Both the position numbers and the translations under genes were made by a program. DNA of 63,738 nucleotides, counting the filler, from Thraustochytrium aureum (taxonomy: Eukaryota), in the NCBI GenBank assembly GCA_012862495.1. It is 6 parts of 6 records of this genome, joined end to end, with 100 filler letters (N's around TTAATTAATTAA, not from the genome) between each part and the next. Parts side by side here need not be neighbours in the genome. Positions count along the whole stretch, not along the records: positions 25,242 to 38,525 come from BLSG01000045.1; 5 more parts are not named here. One strand, given 5' to 3'. Positions 645-61,335 of the stretch are shown here, one piece after another (the stretch's first letter is position 1; each line of letters opens with the position of its first letter). The notes under the pieces are model-generated. The model made no database searches and was not told where the DNA came from. It worked only from the letters and a program-made list of their open reading frames with translations.

Positions 645-3600
645 TTATGCACCACGCTTGCTCCTTTTTGCACTTCTGCCCTGACCAGCGCTGTCAGCTG
701 TTCTGTAGGACAGCTGCACAGGTTCGGCAGACAAGCCCGTGATGCCAGGCAGGACCTGGCCAGGGAGAACGAAAATCTTGGCTGACTGGAGCTCCACCCT
801 GCAAGCGAAGTGGTTGAAGTGCAGCCAGGCAAACTGCCTGGACCCGATGGGAATCCGATCGCGCACGACGCGCGCCATGGCCCAATCTCCGTTAAACTTG
901 ACCTGGATGTCCTGCACTAGCTCGCGCATTAGCGGAGGCATGAAATCCACCTCGGATGCCGAGCGCCATGGGACCTTCCGCCATTCGTTGTTATGCGTGT
1001 CGAAGATAGCAATGCTCATCTCTCGCACCCCAACGCGCCGGTTGTAAAACCCGAACTGGGCCTGGAGGACGTTGGCGCTTACAGGGACTCCCATCCAGTT
1101 GAGGGCCTTGGCTTCGTTAAGCGCAGTTGCAGACACGAGTTGATGGAATCCCGTTTCCTTCGAGTACCCGCATACTTTCAAGCACTGGAACTCTTGCCTG
1201 ATGCGGACGAACAAAACTCTGCCCAGCATGTTGGAGCGCCAAGACTCGCGCAACAGTGTTGAGCTCGAGAGCGGATACACGTCCCACTCCACCTGGTGAG
1301 GTGAGTCTCCATCCAGTGTTTCCGGGGCCGCTTGGAGCGAGAACGCCGCCGACGCTCGTGGAAAGGCCACAAGGTGAACGGCGCTACCCGCGTCTGGCAG
1401 CTTGTACGTGTAGAGTGGACGGAGTTCGCGCGCGTCCAGGAGCAGTGCCTCGCACGCGCCGAGCCTTACATGAACAAAGCAGTCCAGCGCTTCGAGCACC
1501 GTCGTTCCACCGCGGACGAACGCACGATTACGCACCGGCGCTTGAGGAATGCAAACGCAGGCTACATGCTCGTGCAGGGTACCGCTAGGTTGCCTGATCT
1601 GGACCGCCGCAACCATGAGGTACAGATTGCCGCGCACATCCCAGACAAGCGACGGCTGCCGGGCGTTGTACTCCCTTGTTTCCAGACCGCCCTGGCCTCT
1701 TCTACAGAGACCTCGAAGCGTGTGCGATGAGACGCCAGCACGTTTCACCTCCTTCAGGTGGGCCGCCGACGCAATGACGACCGAACAGTCTGTTGCTACA
1801 CCACTGAACAGGCGAGTCCAGTCCTCACCTCGCACCGCGGCGTCAGTTCGCTTTTCACCGATGACGTCGTGTGCGGTCCACCGCAGCAGGGCGTTGACCT
1901 CCTGTCGTGCGTCGCGGACACTAACTTCCATCACTCCGCCTGCAGCCTTCGCTTGGACCTTGGCTTGCAGCTCGCGCGGAGGCGTGGGCAGAGCTTCGGT
2001 GCAGCGCAAGACCATCGCATCACGCTCAATGGCGAGGTTCAAGATGTGCTTGCCCACGCCGCTCGCGTCTTTGTTGTTAAGTTGCCGTGACGGTCTCTTG
2101 CAATGCTCCAAATGCGCTTTCTCGAAAGCGCTGGTGTCCGTGGCGATGCCAGGGCCGCTCCTCTGCAGCGCCGCAAAAATGTGCCGCGTGCCGTGCTCTT
2201 TTATGGTTCGCACAGGTCCGGGGTTGCTGCCATTGGCGCTGCCCCGGGCAGCCTTGACAGCGCCAAATATTCCGACATAGAAGCGATCGAAAATGTCGTA
2301 CTCCATGAGCGCCGCGTCCACCGATGTAGGTGTTGGCTGCCGGAGCCGAGCGTAGTAGTGCAGCTTGAGCACCGACTGAGCGAGAAGCAGAACCGCCTCA
2401 AAGCCCTCGATAACCTGCAGCACTGGGTGGGGCTCGTCCACGATGATTTCCCTGTACCACAGCGCCACAAAGCAGCGCAAGTACTCGCTCCACCATTTCG
2501 CTTCAACGCGCGTGAGCAAGTTGCGCGATGGCAACAGCCTTGCTAGGGCAGCGCACACGTTCTCTTGCGGCTTGGTGAGCGCTTTTCGCTTCATGCGCTT
2601 ACCCAGCGCGTGCATCGTAGCAGGGATGCTGCCGGAAGAGCTGCCAGCAACGTGGAAGGCAAGCGTAAAGACGTCTTTCACGATGCCCGAGTCGATGGTG
2701 TGCATCATGTCGAAACCGAAGAGCTCGTAGGGGTTGCGCAAACGAAAGTCAAGCGAAGTCTGCAGTACGGCGTTGAGCTCCCCAGCCTCGCAATGCATTT
2801 TCCACTTGCTTGTAAAGTACTTGCCGTGCGCAGCACGGTTTGGGCCTGGTGCCGTCGCCGTTGACCACGCCTCCTTCAAGGTCCTGAGTGACTTTAGCGG
2901 GCAGCCGAGCGCGAGGTTGCCGGCCTCGCCTTCGTCTTCGACCGCCCGGCTCCCGCCTTCGCGGAGACGGGCAGTGCAGAATCTGCAGTTATAGCCAACG
3001 CAGCCGGCCTGCGTGTTTGCGTCCTTATTGTCCGCGATGCAAGCGCTGAGGTTCACGAGGTACCTTCGCCGCGTGCCGTCCCCCGCGGTCATGCAGAGTC
3101 CGCCTTCCAGTACCGCGACACGCTGCGCAACAGCGATGGCTTCAAAGACGCAAAGGAGAGCGGCTTGCTTTTCCCAACGAGCAAAGCGGCGCGGGAGGTC
3201 CGACGAGCTTGTCTTCTTTTCCAGCTTGGTGGTCACAAAGTAGCCAATAACGCTGTGCGACCGGTCCTGCTGCCTTGCCAAGGCGCCAGTGTTACCCACT
3301 TGCATCAGGATTGGGCACATCGTCCGCCCGCTAAAGCTCACCACGGTGTCGTCCTGGAAGACGATGAGTGAAAGCAGCTCGGCGTCGCTGATGGCGCGCT
3401 CATTCGCCTCAAGGATTTGGACCCGGTTTTGCACGTTGTTGCATTCCGCTGCCGTCTCCGCCACGTGCCTCGCAGAGGCGACTGCTGCTGCCTTCTCAGC
3501 TGCAAGCTGAGCGAGCGCGCGATCGCCGCTGGTCAGGTCGTCAAAAACGCGTACGCCGCCGTGGCCGACGAATTCCTCCACCCGCGGCAGAGCGCCGAAG

Positions 3601-4820
3601 TCCTTGCAAAGCTCCGGCCGCGACAGAAGAGCGTGCGCAACAGCGAGCACGTCCCGCAGGACGAAGGACTTGTGGGAGCCGATGTTTGGATCCCCAGCGT
3701 TGCGAAACTCTTCTGGGACCTCGACTCGAAACTCAGTCGTGAAGCCTGTATAGTCACAGGTGTCTTGTCGAAGGTGCTTTCGAAGAGTCCGTGACAGGGA
3801 TAGGTTCTGGCGGCGGTACTCCCTCGCCTTTGCAGCTGGGTCGAAGATGTTGTGCAGCTTGGCAAATTTGCGCAAGACCGACTCTGTCGTGCGGGATACG
3901 GCATCATACGTCTCAAAGGACCCGCCAGGCGTGATGATGTCCTCGTAGAACTGCAGTTGTGGCTCGGAAACGTGACGCTCGAGCCGGCTCTGGGCGGCTC
4001 GGCGCATTTCGTCAAGCGTGCACTCGCCGTTCTGCACCCACCGCCGCCGCATGACACACTCGTAGCCCGCGATGTCTAAGCCCGCGCCGCGGTTCAATCC
4101 TGCTGTGGCAGTGGAGGCCTCGTTGAGGAAAACGACTGGTGATGCCACATGACCGTCGTTCGAGTCTCCGGAACCAAAGAGGTCGGCCTCGGAGCAAGCA
4201 GCGCCGGCTGGGCAATCCTCCTCGCTCCCAACCACCTCAAGGCTGGTGTCGCTATCCGCCTCTTCCGCGTGAAAGTCGATCGCCGACTCGCTCGAGCTGT
4301 CGGACAACTCTTCGCCAGCCCCGTCGCACTCCCCAACATACTCGAGCTCGTCCGTCTCCCCTTGTCTGGCGCCATCTCCTTGCGGCACGTTTTGGGGTCG
4401 CGCTTGCAGAGGCGAATCACCGAGCATGGCGCTTGGGCAGCTCGTAGGTGCACCAGGGAGCGCGCCAAAATCTGGGGCCGGCTTGTCGCTCCTTAACGGA
4501 ACGCCATGCTCGGCGCGGAATTGAAACCGCCTCTGCGAGAGCCAACGCGAAGTCGGGCTCGCAATCGTCTCGAACGCGGCGGCACCACGAGTTGAATCAT
4601 GGCCGACATCGAAGTGCCGGAAAAGCCGCGCGTAACCACCTGCGTCCGCTGAAAACGACGCCCGACAACTTTCCACAGGACAGCGAACGTAAAGCCCACC
4701 GCACCTCCTGATGCTCTTCTTCACGCAACCGAGTTGTGGGTGCGGGTGAGAGCGCCGTTGCTTGGCGCCGCAGAAGAAACAACCCCAGGGGTCGCACCAC
4801 ACGTCCACTTGGAGCGACAT
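645..4820 (-). CDS. Plavaka-like transposase (N-terminal C2H2 zinc finger, RNase H-fold core, long C-terminal extension)
   Basis: 1391-aa uninterrupted ORF. Motifs: CPVESC...RHFDVGH (C2H2), VFDDLTSGD, LIVFQDDTVV...CPILMQVGN, VIGYF, IADNKD...CRFC, FDMMHTIDSG (DxxH), IKEHGTRH, TDTSAFEKAHLEHCKRPSRQLN (ExxH...K). This order matches Plavaka transposases. Confidence 0.82.
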   Translation of the reverse strand: MSLQVDVWCDPWGCFFCGAKQRRSHPHPQLGCVKKSIRRCGGLYVRCPVESCRASFSADAGGYARLFRHFDVGHDSTRGAAAFETIASPTSRWLSQRRFQFRAEHGVPLRSDKPAPDFGALPGAPTSCPSAMLGDSPLQARPQNVPQGDGARQGETDELEYVGECDGAGEELSDSSSESAIDFHAEEADSDTSLEVVGSEEDCPAGAACSEADLFGSGDSNDGHVASPVVFLNEASTATAGLNRGAGLDIAGYECVMRRRWVQNGECTLDEMRRAAQSRLERHVSEPQLQFYEDIITPGGSFETYDAVSRTTESVLRKFAKLHNIFDPAAKAREYRRQNLSLSRTLRKHLRQDTCDYTGFTTEFRVEVPEEFRNAGDPNIGSHKSFVLRDVLAVAHALLSRPELCKDFGALPRVEEFVGHGGVRVFDDLTSGDRALAQLAAEKAAAVASARHVAETAAECNNVQNRVQILEANERAISDAELLSLIVFQDDTVVSFSGRTMCPILMQVGNTGALARQQDRSHSVIGYFVTTKLEKKTSSSDLPRRFARWEKQAALLCVFEAIAVAQRVAVLEGGLCMTAGDGTRRRYLVNLSACIADNKDANTQAGCVGYNCRFCTARLREGGSRAVEDEGEAGNLALGCPLKSLRTLKEAWSTATAPGPNRAAHGKYFTSKWKMHCEAGELNAVLQTSLDFRLRNPYELFGFDMMHTIDSGIVKDVFTLAFHVAGSSSGSIPATMHALGKRMKRKALTKPQENVCAALARLLPSRNLLTRVEAKWWSEYLRCFVALWYREIIVDEPHPVLQVIEGFEAVLLLAQSVLKLHYYARLRQPTPTSVDAALMEYDIFDRFYVGIFGAVKAARGSANGSNPGPVRTIKEHGTRHIFAALQRSGPGIATDTSAFEKAHLEHCKRPSRQLNNKDASGVGKHILNLAIERDAMVLRCTEALPTPPRELQAKVQAKAAGGVMEVSVRDARQEVNALLRWTAHDVIGEKRTDAAVRGEDWTRLFSGVATDCSVVIASAAHLKEVKRAGVSSHTLRGLCRRGQGGLETREYNARQPSLVWDVRGNLYLMVAAVQIRQPSGTLHEHVACVCIPQAPVRNRAFVRGGTTVLEALDCFVHVRLGACEALLLDARELRPLYTYKLPDAGSAVHLVAFPRASAAFSLQAAPETLDGDSPHQVEWDVYPLSSSTLLRESWRSNMLGRVLFVRIRQEFQCLKVCGYSKETGFHQLVSATALNEAKALNWMGVPVSANVLQAQFGFYNRRVGVREMSIAIFDTHNNEWRKVPWRSASEVDFMPPLMRELVQDIQVKFNGDWAMARVVRDRIPIGSRQFAWLHFNHFACRVELQSAKIFVLPGQVLPGITGLSAEPVQLSYRTADSAGQGRSAKRSKRGA

Positions 4821-18554: not shown

Positions 18555-20580
18555 TCACAGCAAAACCTGGCGCTGCTCGCAGTCGAACGCGAGTACGCGC
18601 AGCACCGCGGCTGCAAGAGCCACATGGTCCACTGCAAGCGACGCGTAGCGCGCAAAAACCTGCGCCACAGCTTCCTGCCTGGCGCGGGAGATGTAAAGCC
18701 CAGGCCGGAGGCGCCGCGCGTCCAGGATAATCGCGCTGGCCATGCGCGGCGGCAGCGTTGGAGCATCTATATTGTTCCCGCGCAGGTCGAGAGTGCGCAA
18801 GGTGTTGTTCATTGCGAGGCCGTCGAGCAGCACGCTCAGGGGCGCCAGCACTTGGCGGCCCTCGTGCTTGCGGCGTGCCGGGAGCGGCTTTGAAGGCGCG
18901 CAGAGTGCCAAATCGCGCAAACCGAAGACGCGAAGGGAGCGAGTCGCCGCGAGCATTTCCGCGATTGCATGCACGCATGCAAGTGCCTCCTCCGGTGTGG
19001 CGGCGCGAAGGCGGTTCCCGGACAAGTCCAAGTCTGCCAGGCGGTACAGCCGACCGAGTCCGCCAACCGCTGTCGCGATGCTAGCCAGCCCGGCGTGCGA
19101 AAACCCAACATTTGCGAGCCCAAGGGATCTAATCCCTCGGTTGGCCTTGAGAATCCGCGCCAGGACCAGCACCCCACCGTCTTCTATCCTGTTGCCGTCG
19201 AGGCTGAGCTCCTGGAGCCCGCGGTGAAGCGCCAGGCTTGACTCGAGGACCCCTATGGAGCTGGCGCTCAAGTGGTTGCCCGCGAGGCACAACTTGCGCA
19301 GCCCGACGCACGAGCAGATCATATGCGATAGGGAAAAGGCACTCCGGTGCGTAAGCTTGTTGAACGAGAGGTCGACGTCGACAAGCGAGCTTTTAGGGAC
19401 GGAGAACCCGTGACCTGAGACAAACGCCTGGAATACTGTGTCGCCCAGCCCGTTGCGCGACAAACTGAACGCCTCAAGGAGGGGCAGCGTTTTTATAGAG
19501 CTCGAGAGCAGCACCGCGACTTGGGCGAGCTCTTCGTAGACAGGCCTGCCGGCGTCGTCCATGCGCTCCCAGCGACCGCGAGCGATCCAGTTCCCGGAGA
19601 GGTCCAGCCGTCGGAGCTTCTGGCACCCAGCTTTCACAGCCCTCAGCAGTGGCTCGAGATCCCCGGCAACCAGACCGCACTGCGGTACGCCAAAGTCTAA
19701 TAGCTCTGTCTGGTGAACCAAGGGCCGCGGCCAGTGCTTCTACGGCAGACTGCTCGCCGCGCTTGGACCGGAGCCCGACCGAGCGGAACCGGAGCGTGCG
19801 CGCACTGGTGAAAACCTCGAGCGCTTTGAGCAGGCCCAGCCGCTGGCCGGCCCACGAGTCCCGAACCTCCAGCTCAAAGACGCTGTCAAAAGACTCGACC
19901 CTGTGAAGAAGCGTCTTGAGGGGCCCCCCGCTCATTGTGCGCGCAAGCTCTTTCAGCGCCGTCGCTTCAATAGTCCTCTGCTGGTTGCGCGCGAGGCGAG
20001 CGGCTGTCTCCTCTTCCTCTCGGATGCGCCGCTGCATCTCCTCGACGAGATTCCCCACGCGGACCGCTTCGTGCCGCGACCGAACCATGGATTGGATTTT
20101 GGTGGCAGCCGCGACGCGCTCGGCGTGGCGCGCGCGCCCTGCAGCTTGTCGCGATGCGCTCACAGCGACGTAGCGCTCGATCAGGTCGTTGCGCATCTTC
20201 TCTTTGTATTGCAGCGCGTTCGCGCGCGTGCTTGCCTCGCTAGCGAGCGCGAGACGCGGGATGAGCCCGACGCGGGGCAGCGTGCCGAGCTCGCTCCGCA
20301 AGTTCACGACCGGCGGCAGCTCCTCAGACTCCGGCGCTGCTGCGTGTCCGCTGCGAAGGCGTCGCATCTGCTCGGCCTGCAGCTTGTTCTGCAGCAGCTT
20401 TTGCCTGCCCCGCTTCATCTTGGCCGCCTTGGCCTTGTCCGCTATCTCGCGTCGCCTTGCCTCTTGCTTGTCGCGCGCCGCACGGAGCTGCATGATCTTG
20501 TGCTTGCTCTCAGCGCCATCGCGATGCGCTCCGCTCACGTCTTCCATCGGGCCGCGCATTGTCGCGGCGCCAATGGCCAT
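18555..20580 (-). CDS. IQ-motif plus RNI-like leucine-rich repeat protein (frameshift near 19720)
   Basis: IQ motif AATKIQSMVRSRHE and coiled coil, then LRRs (LRRLDLSGN, LQELSLDGNRIEDGG, LADLDLSGN, LRTLDLRGN); ORFs 19474-20580 and 18555-19721 overlap. Confidence 0.8.
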
Positions 20581-31526: not shown

Positions 31527-34500
31527 CTAGGCGGGCAGCTGGAAGTCGGCAGGCACGACGCCTTCGAGAAGAGGAACGATGCGCTGTCGCAGCGACTCCT
31601 GCACCTCGGGCAACTCGCGAGCCACGTCGTTCCGCCAGTAACGCTCCAGCCTTTCGCCCCGCAACTCGACCCACGCCCGCTCGAGGTCGCCACGGTCCCC
31701 GAAATAGCCTTGGCGTGGCGCGCGGTTTTGCGGGCAATTGGCAACGTGCTCGTGAGCGTCGTTGCCACAGTCCTGCAGACACCAGGCGCAAAAGTGGCAC
31801 CCACACCCGTTCCGTCCACAGGTGAGCGCAAAACAGCCTTGAAAGTCTGCGAAAACCTCCTCACACCGCGGGCAACTCAACGAAAGGATCTTGTCAGTGA
31901 TGTGATTCCAATGCCGCCGGACAATGAGCCCCATCTCCCCCTTGGCCAGCTCGGCCTCAAGCCGGGCCTTGAACTCGCGTTCCAAGTCCGCGCGGTGCTG
32001 GTCCTGAAGCCGCGCTTGGACATCTGCCCACGCCTCAGGGGAGGCCAGGCGCGCCAGCTCACTGCTCGGAATTACGTCGTCGCATACGCTGCAGGACACC
32101 GACCCATCGGGGGCGAGCCGCTCGCCTTGCAACGCACCGAGAAAGCCATCGAGGCACGACTCTTGACACACCGCGTGGCCTTGCGGGCAGCACGCTGCGC
32201 GCGCGCGGTCCACCTTGTCCATGCACGCCACGCAGTCGCGCACCTCCACCGCCGCACGATCGAAGAACGCCCGACCTCGCACGCCAGCCGCGCTTGGCCT
32301 GGCGGTCGGGTCGTCCGAGCACAGCTCCTCCACGAGGCTGGAAACGTCGTGGATGCCGTCGAAGAGCTCCGCGAGCAGCTTGCCGAACGCGTACATGTCG
32401 GCGCTGCTCCTCGCCGACGTCTCCGCCCCAGAAGCAACCTCAGGGGCGAGATATCTCAAGGTGACGTGCAGTGCCCGTGTGGCCGTAGCGTCAGCGTGCC
32501 GCACGCCGTCAAAGTCGCCGATCACAGCGCGGCCAGACGTGGTGAGCAGCACGTTTCCCGGCTTGATGTCCATGTGGACACACCCTGCTGCGTGCACGGC
32601 CGCGAGTCCGTCAAGCAGGTCGCACGCGATGCTCTTGCAGACCTCGACGCTGCGGGCCTGGCCCTCGTCGGTCAGGAGCCACTGGTCCAAACTGCCACGT
32701 TCGTAAAAGGGCATTACCAGAAACCCAAAGTGACCCTCGACGAAGACGCCCTGCACGCACACCACGAACGAGTTTCGAAGAGCCCGCAGCACGCCACACT
32801 GTCGGTAAAAGTGGCGCTGGCGGTCCTCGTCGCCGAGAAAGAAACGCTTGAGCACGACCGTTCCCCCGCGTGAATCGGTGGCTCGAACAACGGTCTTGCC
32901 ACTGACCGTCGCCAAGGTGTTTACGACGGCAAAGTCGCTCTCCTTTGCGTCGTCCAACCAAACGCCGCTGCGGCACAGCTCCGCGACGGGAAAACCCGCG
33001 CTGACGCGCAGCTTGAACAGAACAGCCTCGTCAAAGCGCTTTTCGGGAAAGTGCTGGAATACAATCTTGAGGATGCGCGATCGCTCATTGCGCAGCTCGC
33101 GCTCCACCCTCCACTGGGCACTCGAGGCGTCCAGCTCGACCAGCTCGCGCTGCAACTTTGCAATCTGCGCAATGGCTTCGGCGCGTACATCCGGGCTGTC
33201 CATGAATTTCAGGTCGTCCTCCAAGTCTTGTATCTGTTTCCGAAGCTCGTGTCGCTCCTCGCGGATCCTGAGGCTTGCGGCGCGCAGCTCTGCGACGCAG
33301 CCCTCGATCCGCGCAAAGCTGGGCTCGTTCTCACCGGCAACGACTTCGTCGAGCTTCAGCTTGGCTGCCTTGCGTTCGTCCTGCAGCGCTTCGAGCCGCC
33401 CGGGCACCCACTTGCCGTAAAACTCGGTGATCGCAGCCAAGGCGGCATAGACGAGCTCGACCGGTGCGTCGGCTTGCGGGTTGCGATCCTCCAGCGCAGC
33501 AATCTCTCGCCGCATCACTTCTCGTAAGCGGCTCAGCCACCCCTCCAGGCCGCTCAGGTCGTCTGGGTCCTGTAGAAGCGACTCAAGCGAAGGCGACGCT
33601 CCATCAAGCTCGCGCATCGTTGCTTCTGTGGCGTCTAGAAGACCACCAAGGTCGTGTTTGGACCTCCACAAGTCGATTTGCTCGAGCGTGACCTGGGCTG
33701 TCGCTTTCACCGCGCCGAAATCGTCTACTTCAGAGGTTGTCTTGGACTCGACGAATGGCTCGACAGTCTCCAACGCGGCTTGGGCTCTCGCGTTTGCGCG
33801 GACAGCGTCGATCTCGACGTCTCGCATCCTGCCGTCGAACGGGAAGGCGAGCGATTCTCGAAGGCTCGCTAGCAAGGTGGAGCGCGCCGCGTTGCGGCGC
33901 TCGACAGTTCCGACCAAGTCCTCCACATCAGGGCTATGAAGCACAGCCTGGAGCGCCTCCAGCTCAGCTGCTGACTCGCTCGCTTGTGCCAGGCTCTGCT
34001 CCAAGTCAGCCATGCGACTTAGCGGGTTGACGTGGGCCAAGACCTGGTCGAGGGCGGCTCTCGCGGCGTCAAGAAACTGGATCTCGCTATTCCTTCTCCC
34101 CCTGGCCAACTCGGAGGCGGACGAGTCGGGTGCGTGTACGAAAGCAATCAAAACACAGCTCCATTGCCGGGGTGCTGCCACGAAGCTCCGCCTCGAGCTT
34201 GGCTCGCGCTGCCTGCTCAGTCTGCTGCTCTTCTTGCTGGGCTGCTCTATCCTCACCGCCGGTTCCCTGACCTCGAGCTAGAATCGATTGGACCCGCTCT
34301 TGAAGGGGGCTCGACAGCTCGTTTCCAGAAAGGCTGTGTTGGGGTGGCCACTTTGTCAGCGATCGGCCCGGACCACACGTTTAAAAGCAGAGCCCTCCCG
34401 CGCGCGCTGTGACGCCCCCTGTCGTGACTTACTCCAAAGACGTCAGCGTCGAGTTGTGCAAGAGCGCCTCGGCCAGCGCTCCGCCTCCTACATCGGTGAT

Positions 34501-36681
34501 TGCATTGACCGGAAGACTGGCGACGAGTTCTCCCAGCATGTCAGCTAGCTGGCAAGCCGTGCAAAGAGTGGCGAGCCGGGGATCCAGCGCACCCGAAAGC
34601 AACCCGCTTCTGGAGGCTTTCCCTGCAACGACTTACCCCAGGCAAGTCAGCGTGGAGTTGGTTTCGAGCGCCTTGCCGAGCGCGGCAGCTCCCTCGTCGG
34701 AGATTTGGTTGAAACCAAGCCTGTTGGCGTTCACTCTTTCGTTAGCGGGCGAGAAGATTGCTCGCGATTCGTCGCAGAGGCCGTCTACTTACGACAACTC
34801 GGTCAGCGTCGAGTTGGTCTCAAGCGCCTTGCCAAGCGCGACTGCCCCTTCGTCCGAGATGTGGTTATCATGAAGGCTGGCGTCGTCGGGGGCATCAGAG
34901 CACGTTAGCAAAGGCTGCTGATCGAGCGCCGCCAGCGCCGTGTCTCGTCCCGCATGAACTTACTGCAGCACAGCCAGCGTGGAGTTGGTCTCGAGCGCCG
35001 CGCCGAGCGCGGTGGCATCGGCAGCGGAGATGCTCTGGCTAGAAAGGCTGTCACCGTGAGGCGAAACGCTCTGTTGTTAGCGGGGAAGGAGCCGGGTTGT
35101 ACCGGCGCGGTAGGTGCAGTGCGGCGCCCTGCCGCGACTTACTCGAACTCTGTTGCGCCTCGTTTCATCGCGCCCACCGTGAGCAGCGTGGCGATTCGAG
35201 ATTGCAGGTGATCGGAGATGTTGCCGTTGAAGAGGCTGTCGTCGGCGGCGCCGCCCATTAGCACGTCAGCTTTTGAGTGCGGCTGAGCGCGCCTCATCGC
35301 TACCAGCAGGTGCAGAGCGGTCCCTGCAACGACTTACTCGAGCGTCGTCAGCGTCGCGTTGGTCTTGAGCGCCTCGCATAGCGCTTCAACCCCTTCGTCG
35401 GAGATTTGGTTGAAACCAAGGCTGGCAGCGTTGATGAAGAGCATGGAATTGCTCGGATTCTTCGTCAGCGGGCCAGACCCTTCGTAGTCGCAACAACCCT
35501 CGCACTGCACCAACCTACCCTAGCTCAGTCAGCGTCAAGTTGTTCTCGACCGCCGTGGCAAGCGCGGCGACTCCAAAGTCGGAGATGAGGTTCAAACCAA
35601 GGCTGTGGGTGTGTGTTCGATGGCGTTGGTGAGCAGGCCGGATCGCCTCCGTCAGCGAGCGAGAATGAGCAAGTGACGCGGCAGTGCAAGCATGTCGAGC
35701 GCGGATCCAGCACACTCGACAGTCCGCCCGCACTGACGCCTCGCAACGACGTACTTGAGCTTTGTCAGCGTCGAGTTGGTCTCAAGAGCCTTGCCGAGCG
35801 TAGCAGCTCCTTCATCGGTGATTTGGTTCTGCTCGAGACTGTTGATAATCGTGGGGAGGAGGGTTTCGAGCCCGGCTTGTCAGCAAACGAAACGAAAACG
35901 GACGAGCCGGCAGCATGTATTCGACAGTTCGACGGCCACCCAACTCATTCAGACGCTCCAAGCCGACTTACTCCAGCGCCGTCAGCGTCGAGTTGTTCTG
36001 GAGCACATTGCCGAGCGCTGCGGCACCATCGTCGGAGATTTTGTTCTCTTGAAGGCTGCATTCGTTCGTTTTTGCGTCGATACCAATGCGTCAGCGAGCC
36101 TCAAAAATGTAAGGTAGCCTTGAAAACAGCACGGCGTTCTGAGCGCGAAGTGGAGAACGCTGCGCGCTGCGACGCCTTGCAAACAAGACACCTTACTTTA
36201 GTTCAGTCAGCGTCGAGTTGGATTCGAGCGCCTCGGCCAGCGCGAACGCCCCTTCATTGGAGATGCTGTTACCCTGGAGACTATTGGCATTCAGTTTGTT
36301 TTTGATTTGTTTTGTCCCGAAGCCCGTAGCGAACGTCAGCGCGCGTCTCGAAAAAGTCTGTGCTTGCGAGCAGGTCGGCGCTGCGGGGGCACAGAAGAGC
36401 CGCACAGCAAACAGGACGTACCTCAGTTCAGTCACCGTCGAGTTGGTCTTGAGCACCTCGGCCAGCGCGACCGCCCCTGCCTCGTCAACCTCGTTGTTGT
36501 CGAGCCTGCGACCGCGTTGTTAGCCATCTACTCGACCGCATCAAACAAAACCTCCACGACAAAGCCCTCCACCACGCAAACAAGCCCTCCACCGCAAGCC
36601 CGAGGCCACTTACTCGATCCTCCTCTCCCCGCGCTGCGCCGCGCCCACGGCGTCCTCCACGTCCGTCGCCGTGTACCCCAT
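31527..36681 (-). CDS. Multi-exon LRR - coiled coil - protein kinase - RING - Rcat/IBR-like protein
   Basis: Exons, all bounded by GT-AG and phase 2: 36614-36681 (ATG; MGYTATDVEDAVGAAQRGERRI), 36422-36505, 36197-36280, 35972-36055, 35755-35838, 35519-35602, 35338-35421, 35143-35235, 34964-35047, 34793-34876, 34637-34720, 34433-34516. The terminal exon starts at 34333, with a frameshift or small intron near 34090-34160. Kinase motifs VVLKRF, HMDIKPGN, GDFD, YLAPE, DMYAFG; RING CVAC...CPQGHAVC..SC...CSVC; then CPRC...FQGCFALTC...CGCHFCAWC...H. Confidence 0.88.
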
Positions 36682-37240
36682 GCGCCCGCCCAAAAGACAG
36701 ACCGACCGAGCGACCAACCTCCACCACCAGCCCCGTGCGCAGCAGCCGCCCGCGCGAGCGGCCCGCCGCCCAGCAGCCCCGCGTTCGACGCGTCGCGTTC
36801 GACGAGGCCTGCGCGACCCAGGAGCTGTCCCTGCGCGCCGCTGCCTGACTCGTTCGGGCTCTGCTCGTCCCTCTCTCGTACTCGGTTCTCCACTCGGTCA
36901 CGCAATGCAACAAGATCCGAATTAGCCCAACCCAGCCTCTGCACCTTGGCTGTATTCGGATAAACTGTTTATTTTACCGGGGATGGATGGTTAGGGCAGA
37001 GACGGTGTGCACTGTTTCTCCGAAGCGAGGAGGGCAAATTATTGTGCGTGGGTCGTGTCTATGGAGGCGACTGATGGGGCGGGTGTGCGACTGTGGTGAG
37101 CGGCGGCGAGGTGGGCGCGCGAGAGGGTGGACCGCGCTTGCGGGCGCGCGCGGCCATAATTTGTGCGGAACGCTTTCTAATGGAATTTTTCAGTTCCGTT
37201 TTGATCGTTTTGGGAACTTTGGACTGACCTCGAGGAAGGG

Positions 37241-37380
37241 TTGCGAGTTTGGGAGAATCATTCGAGCGTGGCCGCCCAGCTCGACAATATCGGATTGGTG
37301 CGCTTTGATCACGGCAACAACGTCGAGGCGCTGCAGCACTTTGAGCAAGCCCTTGTCGTTGACCAGAGGCGCCTGGAGAT
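37241..37380 (+). pseudogene. Isolated kinesin-light-chain-type TPR repeat (remnant or single exon)
   Basis: ENHSSVAAQLDNIGLVRFDHGNNVEALQHFEQALVVDQR fits the 42-aa TPR consensus (HPxVAxxLxNLGxxxxxxGxxxEALxxxExAL); no long flanking ORF. Confidence 0.6.
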
Positions 37381-38525
37381 TTCGAACTGCATGTGGCTTG
37401 GCATCTACACAATATCGGAATGCTGCACGCAAAGCAGGGCAACAAGGACATGGCGCACGCATGTCTGTTCCAGGCGGTGGGCATTTTCGTGGTCGTGCTC
37501 GGTGCCGACCACCCGCAGAGCAAAGACACCGCTGGGTGGCTGACCTCACCAGGCTAACTTTAGACAAGCGTTGGGTCAGCCAACGAGGATACAAACAGCA
37601 GCGGCTGGTCCCCCCCCCGAAACGCGCTTCACAAGGCACCACGTTGTGTGCCAAGCAGTATGCTTGGAGCGCTCCAAACAAGTAGACTGTGGCCCGGCGA
37701 GCTCTTGCCTTNNNNNNNNNNNNNNNNNNNNNNNNNNNNNNNNNNNNNNNNNNNNNNNNNNNNNNNNNNNNNNNNNNNNNNNNNNNNNNNNNNNNNNNNN
37801 NNNNNNNNNNNNNNNNNNNNNNNNNNNNNNNNNNNNNNNNNNNNNNNNNNNNNNNNNNNNNNNNNNNNNNNNNNNNNNNNNNNNNNNNNNNNNNNCGCTG
37901 GCGTTGTGGCTGGCATGGCCCACTCGCAGCTTCGGGCGCACGTGAACCGCGTCTCCCTTCCTTGCGCCCATCCTCCAGGGAATCAAAGAGAGTACCGCTC
38001 GCGCGGCGGTCAGCAAGCTGGCGAGGCTGGGCCCCGCCGTGATGGCGGCTCTAGCGCGCGGACGACGAATCGCGAGCGCGCATCTCACCTTGACGGCGCG
38101 GCCAACTCATCCGCGGATGGATGCGCCAGCGATGGACGGCTGGAGAAGTTCTCGTCGGAATAGGCCTGACCGTCATGCGTCCGCCTGCGTGAACAGACCG
38201 CTGCTCGCTCGGTGGCTCGATTCAAGAGCCGCGTGCGCACATTTCGCCGCCTGCGAGGCCGCGTGGGAGCCAGCCAGCACCGCGCCTCCCGGAGAAAACC
38301 ACCATCGGTTTTCACGATCGCGTGCACAACCTGCATGATGATCGCTTCCTTGGCGCAACGCGCTCCCGAGGACACCGTGCGCGAAGACGCGCCAGACCAC
38401 AAACCAGCGCAGCGCTGCTCCGTGGGAGCAAGCGAGGCACCGAGCGGGCACGATGCGCAAGTCGCTGGGCAAGCTCGCCAAGCGCGTCAGCCTGCGCGGC
38501 AGCAAGCGCGCCGACGAGGACGAGG

Positions 38526-47813: not shown

Positions 47814-49390
47814 CGGCTCTTTCGAGCGTGTTCAACCCAATCGTGCTCCCACTGTTCCTGAGCGACGTGGGGTTCCAGAGCTGGACCTCGTACTGTTCGA
47901 GCTGTTGAGTCTCCTCAAATGGAAGTTTGAGCACAGTATGCTCCACAGCACGCTCGAAATGTCGTTGCGAGGGCCGCGTCTGCGGCTCTTCTTCGATAGG
48001 CTCGAGGCCAAGATCAGCGCGCATGTCGGCACGCTTCCGGCCTTTCCTGGACGTGCTCGACTCTCCAATGCTCGCGGTGCGCGAAACTGAGGGCCGGCAA
48101 GCCTTTGACACAAAAGTTCAAGAGCAGCTCAAGAGGAACGGCGGCGTCATGCGCGTCGAGCACCTGATAGAGGACGAAGATGGAAAGTCCTGGTGGCTCG
48201 ACCAATTTGGCTGTTCAACATACGCCGTGGCGTGGGCCAAGTTTGAGGACAGGCTCGCCAACCACCCAGACGAACACGTCAGGACCCTCGCGGGGCACCC
48301 TGAAGTCCTGGGCACACTGCGGGAGACGATCAGCCCGCAACAGCGCAAGGCAGTGACGCTGTTCCAGTGGAGCGAGTTTCTCTGGTCGTACGGCCCAGGA
48401 GTCCGAGTTGCTCTCATCCAGATGATCGCGTCTTCAAGAAGCGCGCCTTGGTTTGCGGGGGCGCTCAGCTACGACGAAGCGCGTTCGGTGCTCACGCCGT
48501 TTCCGGGCGGGACTTTTCTCATCCGATTCAGCGAATCTGCAGTTTGCACATGGGCTGTCTCATATGCGAACGAGGTGACTGGTGTAATCAATCACGCGCT
48601 GGTACAGGCCGTCTCGCCGGACCCGTTAAGGCCTGGCGGCGCGGGCCCCGACGACTACTACTTTAGATGCGGGCAAAAGCGCTACCGGTCGTTTGCCGAG
48701 ATTGTGGCGGTCAACGCGGGCCAGCTCCGGCACCCGGCGCCGAACGTTAAAAACTTGGGACCAGCGCGGTGCTTTCGCGATTTTTTGACGTTTGAGGAGG
48801 CGGAGGACATGCTGCGCGGGCAGCGAGCAGGCACCTTCCTGATTCGGTTCAGTATCAACCAGGAGGGGTGCCTCGTCGTCGCCTACGTGACCGCGGAGGG
48901 GGCCATTTTGCAGTCCAAGATTTACTGCGAGCCAGAGCGCGGCTTCGTGCTTGGCGGCCAGGTCTACAAGCGCATCCCTGACATGATCAAGCAGAATCGA
49001 ACCAAGCTCCGCTACCCGCTCGCCGTCCAGTACGGCGGCGGCTGGCTCGACCTCGACGCAGAGGACATGGATGAGACGATTATGTCGAATCACGTGGGCG
49101 CGCGCGAGCGCCGCGCAGAGAGCGGCAATTATGGCGCGCTTGACGCCGCTGGCTCGATGCGCATGTCGGCTGAAGCAACCTACCTGCCTCTCGGCGAGGT
49201 GACCCATTCAGACGGCTGGCCGGCGGACAAGTACTACGACGCTTCTTCTGCCTACGGCTCCGTTGCGCTGCCAGGAGACGACGCCTACGATAATGCCGCC
49301 TACTGTGACGTCTACGGTCCAGTCGGGCTTAGCGCCGGTCTGAGCGACCCAGGCTCGCACGAGGACGTGTACTGGCCAGTGCAACAGTAG
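47814..49390 (+). CDS. Tandem SH2-domain protein with a Tyr-rich C-terminal tail; 5' end in gap
   Basis: WFAGALSYDEARSVL...GTFLIRFSES and FRDFLTFEEAEDML...GTFLIRFS (FLVRES-like, conserved Arg); the preceding helical region VTLFQWSEFLWSYGP resembles the EF-like segment found before Cbl/Shk-type SH2 domains. Confidence 0.88.
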
Positions 49391-60056: not shown

Positions 60057-61235
60057 GGCAAGACCTCGCTTGTTCGGTCACTTCTGGGGAAGGAGTTTAA
60101 CGCAGAAGAAGAGTCAACTGTAGGTGCTGAGCTCCACAAAGTCACGGTGACGGGGGTCTGGAACGAGCTGACCATTGGCGATAAGCACAACACTGCGGAT
60201 CTGATGGCCCGTCGCAACGTGACTCGCAAGAGCAGGGGAAGTTCGGCATCGTCAAAGATTGGTGATGTAGCGAAAGGGATGACAAAGAGGGTCTCGAGGG
60301 CCTTGTCACGGCCAAAGTCCACCACGCGCGCTCGGGAACTTGAGCATGTGCCTCAGACCCTTGACGAAAAGCATGAGTTCGAGGAAGGCGAGTGCGTGAA
60401 GCGGTATGCTGACCTGAAAGTAGACGCCTCTGATCCTGAGAAGCGGCTTACCTTGTCTCTGTGGGACTTTGCCGGCCAGGAGGTGTTTTACTCTTTACAC
60501 CACTTGTTTTTGACAGAGCATGGGATCTACCTGGTCGTTTTTAACAGCGAAATCCTCGTGAAGGGTGAGGATAGTGCAGAGTCATCAACGTTGCGGTTCT
60601 GGCTGGATTCCATTCGCCTCCACACCAAAAAGGCTCGCGTCCTTCTTGTCGGGACGCATCGAGATCAAATCTCCGACAAGCAGGTGAAAAAAGTGGATGA
60701 GATTGTCAGGCAGATTGTCAAAACCTGTAAGATGAGGACGCGTCGGCTGAAAAACACGGTGGCGAAATTGGATTTTTTCCCAGTGGACAATAAATCGAGG
60801 AACGGGGTTGACGTGGTTAGCAAAATGATCTCGGAGCAGGCTCTCGAACTTGAAACCGTGAAGCAGGAGGTCCCGCTCCGGTGGGTCAATATGCTCGACA
60901 CACTCGTAGAGCTCGATGAGCCAAAGTTTAGCAGTGAGCGTGTGAAGGAGATCGCAAAGTCGTGTGGTGTCTCAGATCAGGAGAGAATGCTACGGTTTTT
61001 CCACAAACTCGGCTTGCTGGTGTTCTTAAAACAGACCGCAAGCCTCAAGGAGTTGGTCGTCGTTGACCCTCAGTGGCTCATAGAACAACTCACCCGTGTC
61101 GTGCGGGATCGCGACCATATCGAACTCATCTGCAGAGAGGAGGGCGCCGAAGACTTTGAGGACGATATCCAAAATTGGGAGGACAAGGGTCTTGTGAGCA
61201 AAAGCCTACTCGCCTACTTGTGGAGAGAGCTTGAA
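60057..61235 (+). CDS. ROCO protein fragment (Roc GTPase plus COR domain)
   Basis: GKTSLVRSLLG.EF....ESTVG, LWDFAGQEVFYSLHHLFLT..GIYLVVFN, FWLDSI, LLVGTHRD, then COR motifs EVPLRW, LRFFHKLG, VVVDPQWL; open across the whole contig. Confidence 0.93.
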
Positions 61236-61335
61236 NNNNNNNNNNNNNNNNNNNNNNNNNNNNNNNNNNNNNNNNNNNNTTAATTAATTAANNNNNNNNN
61301 NNNNNNNNNNNNNNNNNNNNNNNNNNNNNNNNNNN
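61236..61335. other. Artificial contig-joining linker
   Basis: TTAATTAATTAA at 61280-61291. Confidence 0.97.

What the first reader, a model, noticed from the sequence alone, without database searches (positions are those of the whole stretch)
34433..36505. One-LRR-per-exon cassette array with variable surface residues: candidate exon-shuffling receptor repertoire
Seen in sequence: in an otherwise nearly intron-free region, this gene has ten exactly 84-nt exons and one 93-nt exon, all with GT-AG boundaries and phase 2 on both sides. Each encodes a single 28-aa RI-type LRR (LDNNEVDEAGAVALAEVLKTNSTVTEL, LQGNSISNEG..., LQENKISDDG..., LEQNQITDEG..., LGLNLISDFG..., LGFNQISDEG..., LSSQSISAAD..., LHDNHISDEG..., LGFNQISDEG..., LPVNAITDVG...). 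The helix scaffold is conserved while the xLxxN positions of the concave binding face vary, and the junction codon is built from two exons. Known context: 84-nt LRR exons occur in vertebrate NOD/NLRC genes, and shuffling LRR/TPR exons were reported in brown-algal (Ectocarpus) ROCO and NB-ARC genes. Inference: any exon can be skipped, duplicated or swapped without frameshift, giving a diversifiable recognition surface. The ORF track largely misses this structure.
Basis: partly seen in the sequence, partly recalled or inferred. Interest (0 to 1): 0.9.

Follow-up and report, generated by a model that had tools for sequence, protein, structure and literature searches.

The report
Protist LRR-kinase-ligase with cassette exons
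A protist gene, likely from a thraustochytrid, splices eleven same-frame mini-exons into a leucine-rich binding arm in front of a kinase and a predicted ubiquitin ligase; the arm bears likely traces of past copying and fusion, so it is probably one member of a diversifying intracellular sensor family, but only the plain, in-order splice form was seen.

Summary
Ten 84-nt exons and one 93-nt exon, GT-AG and phase 2, lie on the minus strand, and all 12 introns are joined at the predicted bases in RNA-like contigs. It runs from an ATG exon at 36681 to 31527 and encodes LRRs, a helical region, a non-RD kinase, a RING1 and an Rcat-like domain (1268 aa; this assembly carries one extra base that two runs lack). 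The host is likely a thraustochytrid. The 93-nt exon is not an ordinary repeat: it resembles a C-cap fused to an N-cap, so two capped solenoids (6+4 repeats) were likely joined. Exons 6 and 10 share a conversion-like tract, and many paralogous cassettes show in the runs. Against an active repertoire: 0 of 12 joints skip an exon, no dead or inverted exons exist, related haplotypes differ only synonymously in the LRR exons, and concave-face variability is generic (49 of 52 similar arrays). The exon design is known from brown algae, Tetrahymena and vertebrate NLRC genes. What I found no paper on is its use in this lineage and the kinase-RING-Rcat module, which carries different repeat heads across protists.

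The parts
36614..36681 (-). Exon 0: ATG and N-terminal cap helix, 68 nt, ends in phase 2
   Evidence: sequence; joint 36504/36613 in X2
36422..36505 (-). LRR exon 1, 84 nt
36197..36280 (-). LRR exon 2, 84 nt
35972..36055 (-). LRR exon 3, 84 nt
35755..35838 (-). LRR exon 4, 84 nt; the intron after it aligns with the intron after exon 10 (z 9)
35519..35602 (-). LRR exon 5, 84 nt
35338..35421 (-). LRR exon 6, 84 nt; 28 of its first 30 bases equal exon 10
35143..35235 (-). Exon 7, 93 nt: 5' part like the C-cap of the last exon, 3' part like the N-cap of exon 0; likely the seam of two fused LRR modules
   Evidence: shuffle p 1e-4 and 6e-4, test chosen after seeing the likeness
34964..35047 (-). LRR exon 8, 84 nt; atypical repeat (Gln for Asn, Asp for Gly), first of the second module
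34793..34876 (-). LRR exon 9, 84 nt; its scaffold words have very high depth in three runs
34637..34720 (-). LRR exon 10, 84 nt; mosaic of exon-6-like 5' part and other 3' part
34433..34516 (-). LRR exon 11, 84 nt
31527..34333 (-). Last exon, intronless: LRR C-cap, linker, helical region, kinase, RING1, long helix, Rcat-like domain
34092..34092 (-). One base present in the window and absent from one contig each of X1 and X2; it shifts the frame between the LRR and kinase parts
32964..34079 (-). All-helical region of about 370 residues (predicted)
32253..32954 (-). Protein kinase domain; Lys, Asp-x-Lys-x-x-Asn, Asp-Phe and APE kept; non-RD; no canonical glycine loop
32082..32234 (-). RING1-like zinc finger followed by a long helix
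   Evidence: parkin RING1, Z 7.2, rmsd 2.6, 87 aligned
31734..31874 (-). Rcat (RING2)-like zinc domain; Cys at the parkin catalytic position (codon 31835-31833), Ala where parkin has His

Best explanation
This is a spliced 13-exon gene for an LRR - helical - kinase - RING1 - Rcat-like protein, likely a cytosolic sensor, whose LRR arm is built one repeat per phase-2 exon and was likely reshaped over evolutionary time by duplication, conversion and fusion of cassettes from a large paralogous pool, while each gene likely makes one main in-order mRNA. Shown: exon structure, splicing, domain order, same-order transcripts. Inferred: recombination history (chimeric exon 7, shared tract, homologous introns), the size of the pool, the thraustochytrid host. 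Inferred from family knowledge only: the concave LRR face binds a protein ligand, binding relieves inhibition through the helical region, the kinase signals, and RING1 hands ubiquitin from an E2 to the Rcat-like cysteine for transfer to the ligand or to the protein itself. A defence role is the most likely use, at about even odds.
For: 12 of 12 introns joined at the predicted bases, all between neighbours. One 1268-codon frame once the base absent from X1 and X2 is left out; homologue P0157 has the same cap + 11 LRR + cap + helical + kinase + RING + Rcat order in one chain. Exon 7 scores 25 against the C-cap (ordinary exons 0-14) and 23 against the N-cap (ordinary exons -12 to 4); exons 6 and 10 share a run of 22 polymorphic sites, global p 0.0015; introns 4 and 10 align, z 9. 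Window repeats are 55% alike on average, match P0157 repeats at 7-17 of 28 residues and are not collinear with them. Same-residue codons are identical in 0.65 of 689 pairs against 0.40 at saturation, while concave codons are near saturation (pN 0.68; dN 1.79 against whole-exon dS 0.61). Paralogues: at 90% likeness 63 of 97 X1 contigs, 53 of 74 X3 and 23 of 40 X2 are only 90-95% alike (whole gene laid); X1 contigs leave the window sequence a few bases into an intron; four contig stretches carry other concave residues between like scaffolds, read by eye. Bin depth 672 over exon 9 against about 3-6 elsewhere in X1. The kinase-RING-Rcat module is in 107 of 150 best hits; of 77 scanned, 12 carry ankyrin, 9 LRR, 3 ubiquitin, 1 each WD40, RanBP1, MYND. 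At least 54 of 58 homologues are non-RD, a trait linked to pathogen recognition in IRAK-family kinases (PMC2553837).
Against: No ligand, activity or induction data. The concave-over-convex contrast is in 49 of 52 comparison arrays and 11 of 52 reach this gene's contrast; those arrays are mostly more homogeneous than this one. Synonymous difference at the concave codons is as high as non-synonymous (0.68 each), so positive selection is not separated from conversion of the scaffold. No dead or inverted exons. X1 differs at 1 of 744 covered LRR-exon bases (synonymous) against 10 differences in 1043 intron bases; X2 shows 2 synonymous changes. The LRRs of P0157 and two cluster mates differ at one residue. 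Depth sums include any organism in the run and give no copy number. 53 of 77 scanned homologues show no Pfam repeat head at the thresholds used. The non-RD link was made for IRAK-family kinases, and membership there was not tested. The Rcat match is weak (E 0.002), lacks the His, and no IBR lies between the two zinc domains.
Confidence: 0.6

Rival explanations
1. An old, now static signalling or protein-quality gene: the cassettes record how the LRR domain once grew by tandem exon duplication, each repeat then fixed on one partner, and nothing is being diversified.
For: Exons only 58-77% alike and introns of 72-152 nt mostly unalignable; same order and only synonymous exon changes in X1, X2, X3 where bridged; concave variability is generic; P0157 has a similar repeat number.
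Against: Chimeric exon 7, conversion-like tract over the variable codons, unsaturated scaffold codons, no collinearity with P0157; many 90-95% alike cassettes in the runs; different heads on one module.
Confidence: 0.25
2. A repertoire made inside cells: exon skipping (or DNA rearrangement) yields many LRR arms per gene; skipping exon 7 alone would merge the 6+4 modules into one 10-repeat solenoid.
For: Every internal exon is frame-symmetric. LRR-exon splice variants are reported for brown-algal ROCO genes (PMC11378527) and human NLRP3 (PMC6642158). Joints between non-adjacent places appear at 90% likeness.
Against: At 96% likeness 0 of 12 joints skip an exon; two X2 contigs of 505 and 387 nt run in order. 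The non-adjacent joints have sides of 22-40 bases, mostly lack GT-AG ends and vanish at 96%, as paralogues would. Donor and branch signals are strong and uniform. The test is weak: depth 3-6, contigs only.
Confidence: 0.1
3. The window's copy is a real frameshifted allele giving an LRR-only product or a dying copy, as in birth-and-death families.
For: The window has a stop about 80 codons into the last exon; the window also differs from X1 at other places, so it may be another haplotype.
Against: One contig each of X1 and X2 lacks the base; both parts are otherwise open and keep their catalytic residues; no laid contig was listed as carrying the window's version, though only single low-depth contigs cover the place.
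Confidence: 0.05

Closest known systems
Brown-algal LRR-ROCO and LRR-kinase genes with one-repeat exons (Zambounis 2012, PMC3341825; Teng 2024, PMC11378527)
   Same: One LRR per exon, phase 2, variable concave face, stramenopile host, recombination within the array. Ectocarpus LRR-kinases have repetitive exons without dead or reshuffled copies, as here.
   Different: 72-nt, 24-residue repeats there; 84-nt, 28-residue RI-type here. No Roc-COR here. No intronic or inverted dead exons and no splice variants seen here.
[quoted passage not shown]
   Same: Exact-length exons, phase 2, junction codon from two exons, about ten exons per gene, some fused to kinases, spread by ectopic recombination.
   Different: 90 nt there; peaked intron lengths and a retrotransposon link there, short variable introns here; thousands of genes shown there, family size unknown here.
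Vertebrate NOD/NLRC genes (Hoss 2019, PMC6642158) and NLRC3-like arrays of corals and Mortierellaceae
   Same: 28-residue RI-type repeat; one repeat per exon in most NOD/NLRC genes.
   Different: No NACHT or NB-ARC domain here; the LRRs are N-terminal and the output is kinase plus ligase-like domains.
RBR ubiquitin ligases (parkin, RNF216, HOIL-1, HHARI)
   Same: RING1 fold with following helix; Rcat-like zinc domain with Cys at the catalytic position.
   Different: No IBR between them, Ala at the His position, and fused behind a kinase and a repeat head.
Protist repeat - helical - kinase - RING - Rcat-like proteins (P0152, P0155, P0196 Hondaea; P0174, P0176, P0182, P0195 Chromera; P0167 Sphaeroforma; P0220 Euglena; P0192 Polykrikos; P0157)
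   Same: Same C-terminal module, 30-37% identical for the proteins named; P0157 has the same whole architecture.
   Different: Heads differ (ankyrin, LRR, WD40, RanBP1, ubiquitin, MYND or none found); their exon structures could not be seen; source names are generic, and my searches found no description of the family.

Membership tests
Brown-algal-type exon-shuffling LRR loci | One repeat per equal-length, same-phase exon | tested here: met
Brown-algal-type exon-shuffling LRR loci | Dead or inverted LRR exons in the introns | tested here: not met
   protein and DNA profiles find only the ten coding exons in the window
Brown-algal-type exon-shuffling LRR loci | Traceable recombination within the array | tested here: met
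   chimeric exon 7, exon 6/10 tract p 0.0015; introns 4 and 10 align
Brown-algal-type exon-shuffling LRR loci | Scrambled exon number and order between recent paralogues | not testable with these tools
   no genome held; paralogues seen only as short contig pieces
Brown-algal-type exon-shuffling LRR loci | Positive selection at concave residues | tested here: inconclusive
   concave dN over whole-exon dS 2.9 (subsamples 1.9-5.7), but local pS equals pN; contrast generic
Brown-algal-type exon-shuffling LRR loci | Alternative splicing of LRR exons | tested here: inconclusive
   0 of 12 joints skip, in low-depth contigs
ROCO proteins | Roc-COR tandem | tested here: not met
   Pfam finds only kinase and weak IBR_2 in the last exon
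NLR receptors | NACHT or NB-ARC NTPase | tested here: not met
   the region between LRR and kinase is predicted all-helical
Tetrahymena-type LRR exon arrays | Exact-length phase-2 exon array of three or more | tested here: met
   84 nt rather than 90
Tetrahymena-type LRR exon arrays | Uniform intron length and retrotransposon next to the repeat units | tested here: not met
   introns 72-152 nt, varied, too short to hold an element
RBR E3 ligases | RING1 domain | tested here: met
   parkin RING1 Z 7.2, rmsd 2.6, 87 aligned, RBR chains in the top seven rows; a middling Z
RBR E3 ligases | IBR between RING1 and Rcat | tested here: not met
   a single helix of about 50 residues joins the two zinc domains in both models
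RBR E3 ligases | Rcat with catalytic Cys | tested here: met
   aligns to parkin Rcat, E 0.002; Cys in 55 of 58 homologues; Foldseek best hit RNF216, E 1.7e-4
RBR E3 ligases | His two residues after the catalytic Cys | tested here: not met
   Ala here and in 55 of 58 homologues
RBR E3 ligases | Ubiquitin thioester on the Cys | not testable with these tools
   needs an assay
Non-RD IRAK/Pelle kinases | No Arg before the catalytic Asp | tested here: met
   Met here; Cys 31, Ala 10, Gly 8, Ser 5 of 58 homologues
Non-RD IRAK/Pelle kinases | Placement in the IRAK/Pelle clade | not tested
   no kinase tree built; fold hits do not separate kinase groups

The most novel reading that the evidence does not exclude
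Thraustochytrids keep a genome-wide pool of hundreds of 84-nt LRR cassettes that recombine between genes, and feed it into an undescribed, protist-wide class of single-chain immune receptors in which a swappable repeat head (LRR, ankyrin, WD40) drives a non-RD kinase and an IBR-less RING1-Rcat ubiquitin ligase: an NLR-like system without an NTPase.
Probability: 0.3. Interest if true: 0.8.

Novelty: new variant of a known kind. Interest (0 to 1): 0.5.

Why it matters
One-repeat-per-exon LRR arrays have arisen in brown algae, ciliates and vertebrates; a case in a lineage whose neighbouring genes look intron-poor suggests that these introns are kept for what they allow, and gives a culturable group in which to test it. 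The downstream module may matter more: a kinase joined to a minimal RING1-Rcat ligase behind exchangeable repeat heads, found in five distant protist groups, is a concrete candidate for how single-celled eukaryotes detect and tag intruder proteins, and a test of whether an RBR-type ligase works without an IBR.

Tried and rejected
No whole genome is held, so paralogues could not be counted or ordered. A cassette-end pattern gave 1 metagenome match, L001, which is unrelated prokaryote-like DNA, a chance hit; a scaffold pattern gave 0 in viral contigs. No run is on record as RNA; X2 and X3 are treated as RNA-like because their contigs skip GT-AG introns, and X3 also holds an intron-bearing contig. 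X4 and X5 held almost nothing. The non-adjacent joints were rejected as exon skips (short sides, gone at 96%). The word-based search with the last-exon ORF found only 1 family member among 29 hits; the full HMMER search was needed. The LRR search returned mostly coral and Mortierellaceae proteins, chosen for many matching repeats, so the control is biased to homogeneous arrays; 24 of 76 were dropped for having under 10 parsed repeats. Fold searches with the 853-residue model returned only kinases, so the helical region has no tested fold. The spliced LRR arm was not folded. The taxon number in the label of P0302 resolves to a fungus, so the host of P0157 is unresolved; a thraustochytrid is my recollection for that label only. 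The script stopped part-way and its repeat finder undercounted; one search replaced it. Literature: 0 papers for thraustochytrid + leucine-rich repeat + exon + LRR, 0 for labyrinthulomycete + leucine-rich repeat + expansion + genome, 1 irrelevant for Aurantiochytrium + intron + leucine-rich repeat, 0 for the six RBR/kinase/protist terms together, nothing relevant in the listings; PMC12258536 has no mention of LRR, ankyrin or kinase. These are narrow searches of an open-access library.
Full report
Observation. The introns are 72-152 nt and each has a CTRAC motif 18-59 nt before the acceptor. The same cassette pattern occurs nowhere else in the window and in 0 of 1000 Markov resamples. Five runs were listed, none on record as RNA. 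Contigs of X2 and X3 skip all 12 introns at the predicted bases, 11 in X2 and 3 in X3, one of these in X3 only. The structure is real and spliced.

The whole gene. A 68-nt ATG exon lies upstream (36681-36614) and a last exon begins at 34333. In the window the frame stops about 80 codons into that exon, but one contig each of X1 and X2 lacks the base at 34092, and without it the frame is open for 1268 codons to 31527. The last exon encodes an LRR C-cap, a linker, about 370 predicted helical residues, a kinase, a RING and a second zinc domain (model pLDDT 92.7). The kinase keeps its catalytic residues, lacks a canonical glycine loop and is non-RD. The RING matches parkin RING1 (Z 7.2, rmsd 2.6, 87 aligned). 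The last domain aligns weakly to parkin Rcat with the catalytic Cys in register and Ala for His (E 0.002). Only a long helix lies between them, so this works like a minimal RBR ligase by inference but fails the IBR and His tests. A neighbouring ERGIC-thioredoxin gene has its best named hits in Mucochytrium (68%) and Hondaea (60%), which points to a thraustochytrid.

The family. A full HMMER search gave 133 proteins at E below 1e-30; 107 of the best 150 have kinase, RING and Rcat-like domain in order (profiles built from 59 of these sequences, so partly circular). Of 77 scanned, chosen for length, 24 carry a recognisable extra domain: 12 ankyrin, 9 LRR, 3 ubiquitin, 1 each WD40, RanBP1 and MYND, with three overlaps; 53 show none. 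Named members come from Hondaea, Chromera, Sphaeroforma, Euglena, Polykrikos and Durusdinium records (20 looked up). P0157 has cap, 11 RI-type repeats, cap and the same module in one chain, which confirms the fused architecture. The Atlas places the C-terminal part of homologue P0155 near unnamed eukaryotic clusters and then IBR/RBR clusters.

History of the array. The 93-nt exon is not an ordinary repeat. Its residues 7-18 score 25 against the C-cap of the last exon (ordinary exons 0-14) and its last 12 score 23 against the N-cap of exon 0 (ordinary exons -12 to 4), both ungapped and in register with the exon ends; shuffle p 1e-4 and 6e-4, from a test chosen after I saw the likeness. The arm is therefore likely two capped solenoids, 6 and 4 repeats, fused end to start. 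Exons 6 and 10 share 28 of their first 30 bases, variable codons included, a run of 22 polymorphic sites with global p 0.0015; introns 4 and 10 align over about 100 bases (z 9). Exons are 58-77% alike, scaffold codons are not saturated (0.65 against 0.40), and the repeats are not collinear with those of P0157. These fit duplication, conversion and fusion within the lineage, of moderate age.

Pool of paralogues. At 90% likeness most laid contigs are only 90-95% alike (63 of 97 in X1, 53 of 74 in X3, 23 of 40 in X2; whole gene laid), X1 contigs run a few bases into an intron and then diverge, and four contig stretches carry other concave residues between like scaffolds (read by eye). Depth over exon 9 is 672 in X1 against about 3-6 elsewhere, and 31-nt pieces reach 1800 in X3. 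This suggests many cassettes, but the sums include any organism in the run and are no copy number.

Surface variation. The five concave positions average 2.69 bits, ten exposed convex ones 1.54 (exact p 9e-5); concave dN is 1.79 against whole-exon dS 0.61. Two cautions: synonymous difference at those codons is equally high (0.68), and the same contrast holds in 49 of 52 arrays, 11 of which reach this gene's contrast, though none reaches its concave entropy.

Against an active repertoire. All 12 joints are between neighbours (depth 3-6, contigs drop rare forms). No dead or inverted exon copies exist in the window. X1 keeps the order where bridged and differs at 1 synonymous site in 744 LRR-exon bases against 10 differences in 1043 intron bases; X2 shows two synonymous changes. 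X1 may be the source sample or a close haplotype, so this is a narrow comparison.

Mechanism. Shown: structure, splicing, domain order. Inferred: a cytosolic sensor (the N-terminus is a short cap helix; no signal or membrane predictor was run) whose concave face binds a protein, with output through the kinase and a RING1-to-cysteine ubiquitin relay; new specificities arise in the germline by cassette recombination rather than by splicing. Non-RD status is linked to pathogen recognition in IRAK-family kinases (PMC2553837, passages); membership in that clade was not tested. Confidence 0.6 overall, about even for a defence role.

Known systems. PMC3341825 (parts 2-4 of 7 read) defines shuffling by dead and inverted exons and scrambled paralogues, and found repetitive exons without these signs in Ectocarpus LRR-kinases. 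PMC11378527 (passages): 72-bp phase-2 exons and splice variants. PMC6564038 (passages): 90-bp phase-2 arrays, some fused to kinases. PMC6642158 (passages): one 28-residue LRR per exon in most NOD/NLRC genes, and NLRP3 exon skipping. PMC12258536 (passages): no LRR mention. PMC1331981 was seen only as a reference. No supplements were read; those of genome papers may list such genes. My searches found no account of this design in thraustochytrids or of the module. Other notes of this scan report like arrays in other genomes; they are unchecked leads and show the design is recurrent.

Verdict. A real, spliced one-repeat-per-exon LRR array with local traces of recombination, on an undescribed kinase-RING1-Rcat-like module. 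New variant of a known kind; interest 0.5.

Noticed in passing
window 37230-37558 (+): Frameshifted TPR-like fragment (two frames read as TPR-type helices by eye), divergent from the LRR gene and next to an assembly gap; possibly a decayed repeat gene.
   Followed up: no
window 60204-61283 (+): Roc-COR (ROCO) fragment between gaps; no 84-nt cassette found upstream in the sequenced bases.
   Followed up: partly
window 645-4820 (-): 1391-codon ORF with a Plavaka transposase domain.
   Followed up: no
window 18555-20580 (-): Another RI-like LRR gene with diverged repeats in one open stretch, apparently without the cassette introns, split over two ORFs; a local contrast to the cassette gene.
   Followed up: partly
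window 36199-36504 (-): Intron 1 (141 nt) is open in frame, so its retention would insert 47 residues without a stop; 8 of 12 introns have lengths divisible by three.
   Followed up: no
window 48023-49390 (+): Protein with two SH2 stretches and a Cbl-type SH2-like hit.
   Followed up: no
window 32422-32795: Raised contig depth and many other letters over the kinase core in X1, X2, X3, suggesting close kinase paralogues.
   Followed up: no
P0290: A family hit that joins RI-type LRR, kinase and a HECT domain, a second ubiquitin-ligase type on a like chassis.
   Followed up: no
Atlas row 15: A cluster of Nucleocytoviricota proteins with Rcat/IBR domains scores 0.89 against the C-terminal part of P0155; a lead only.
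   Followed up: no
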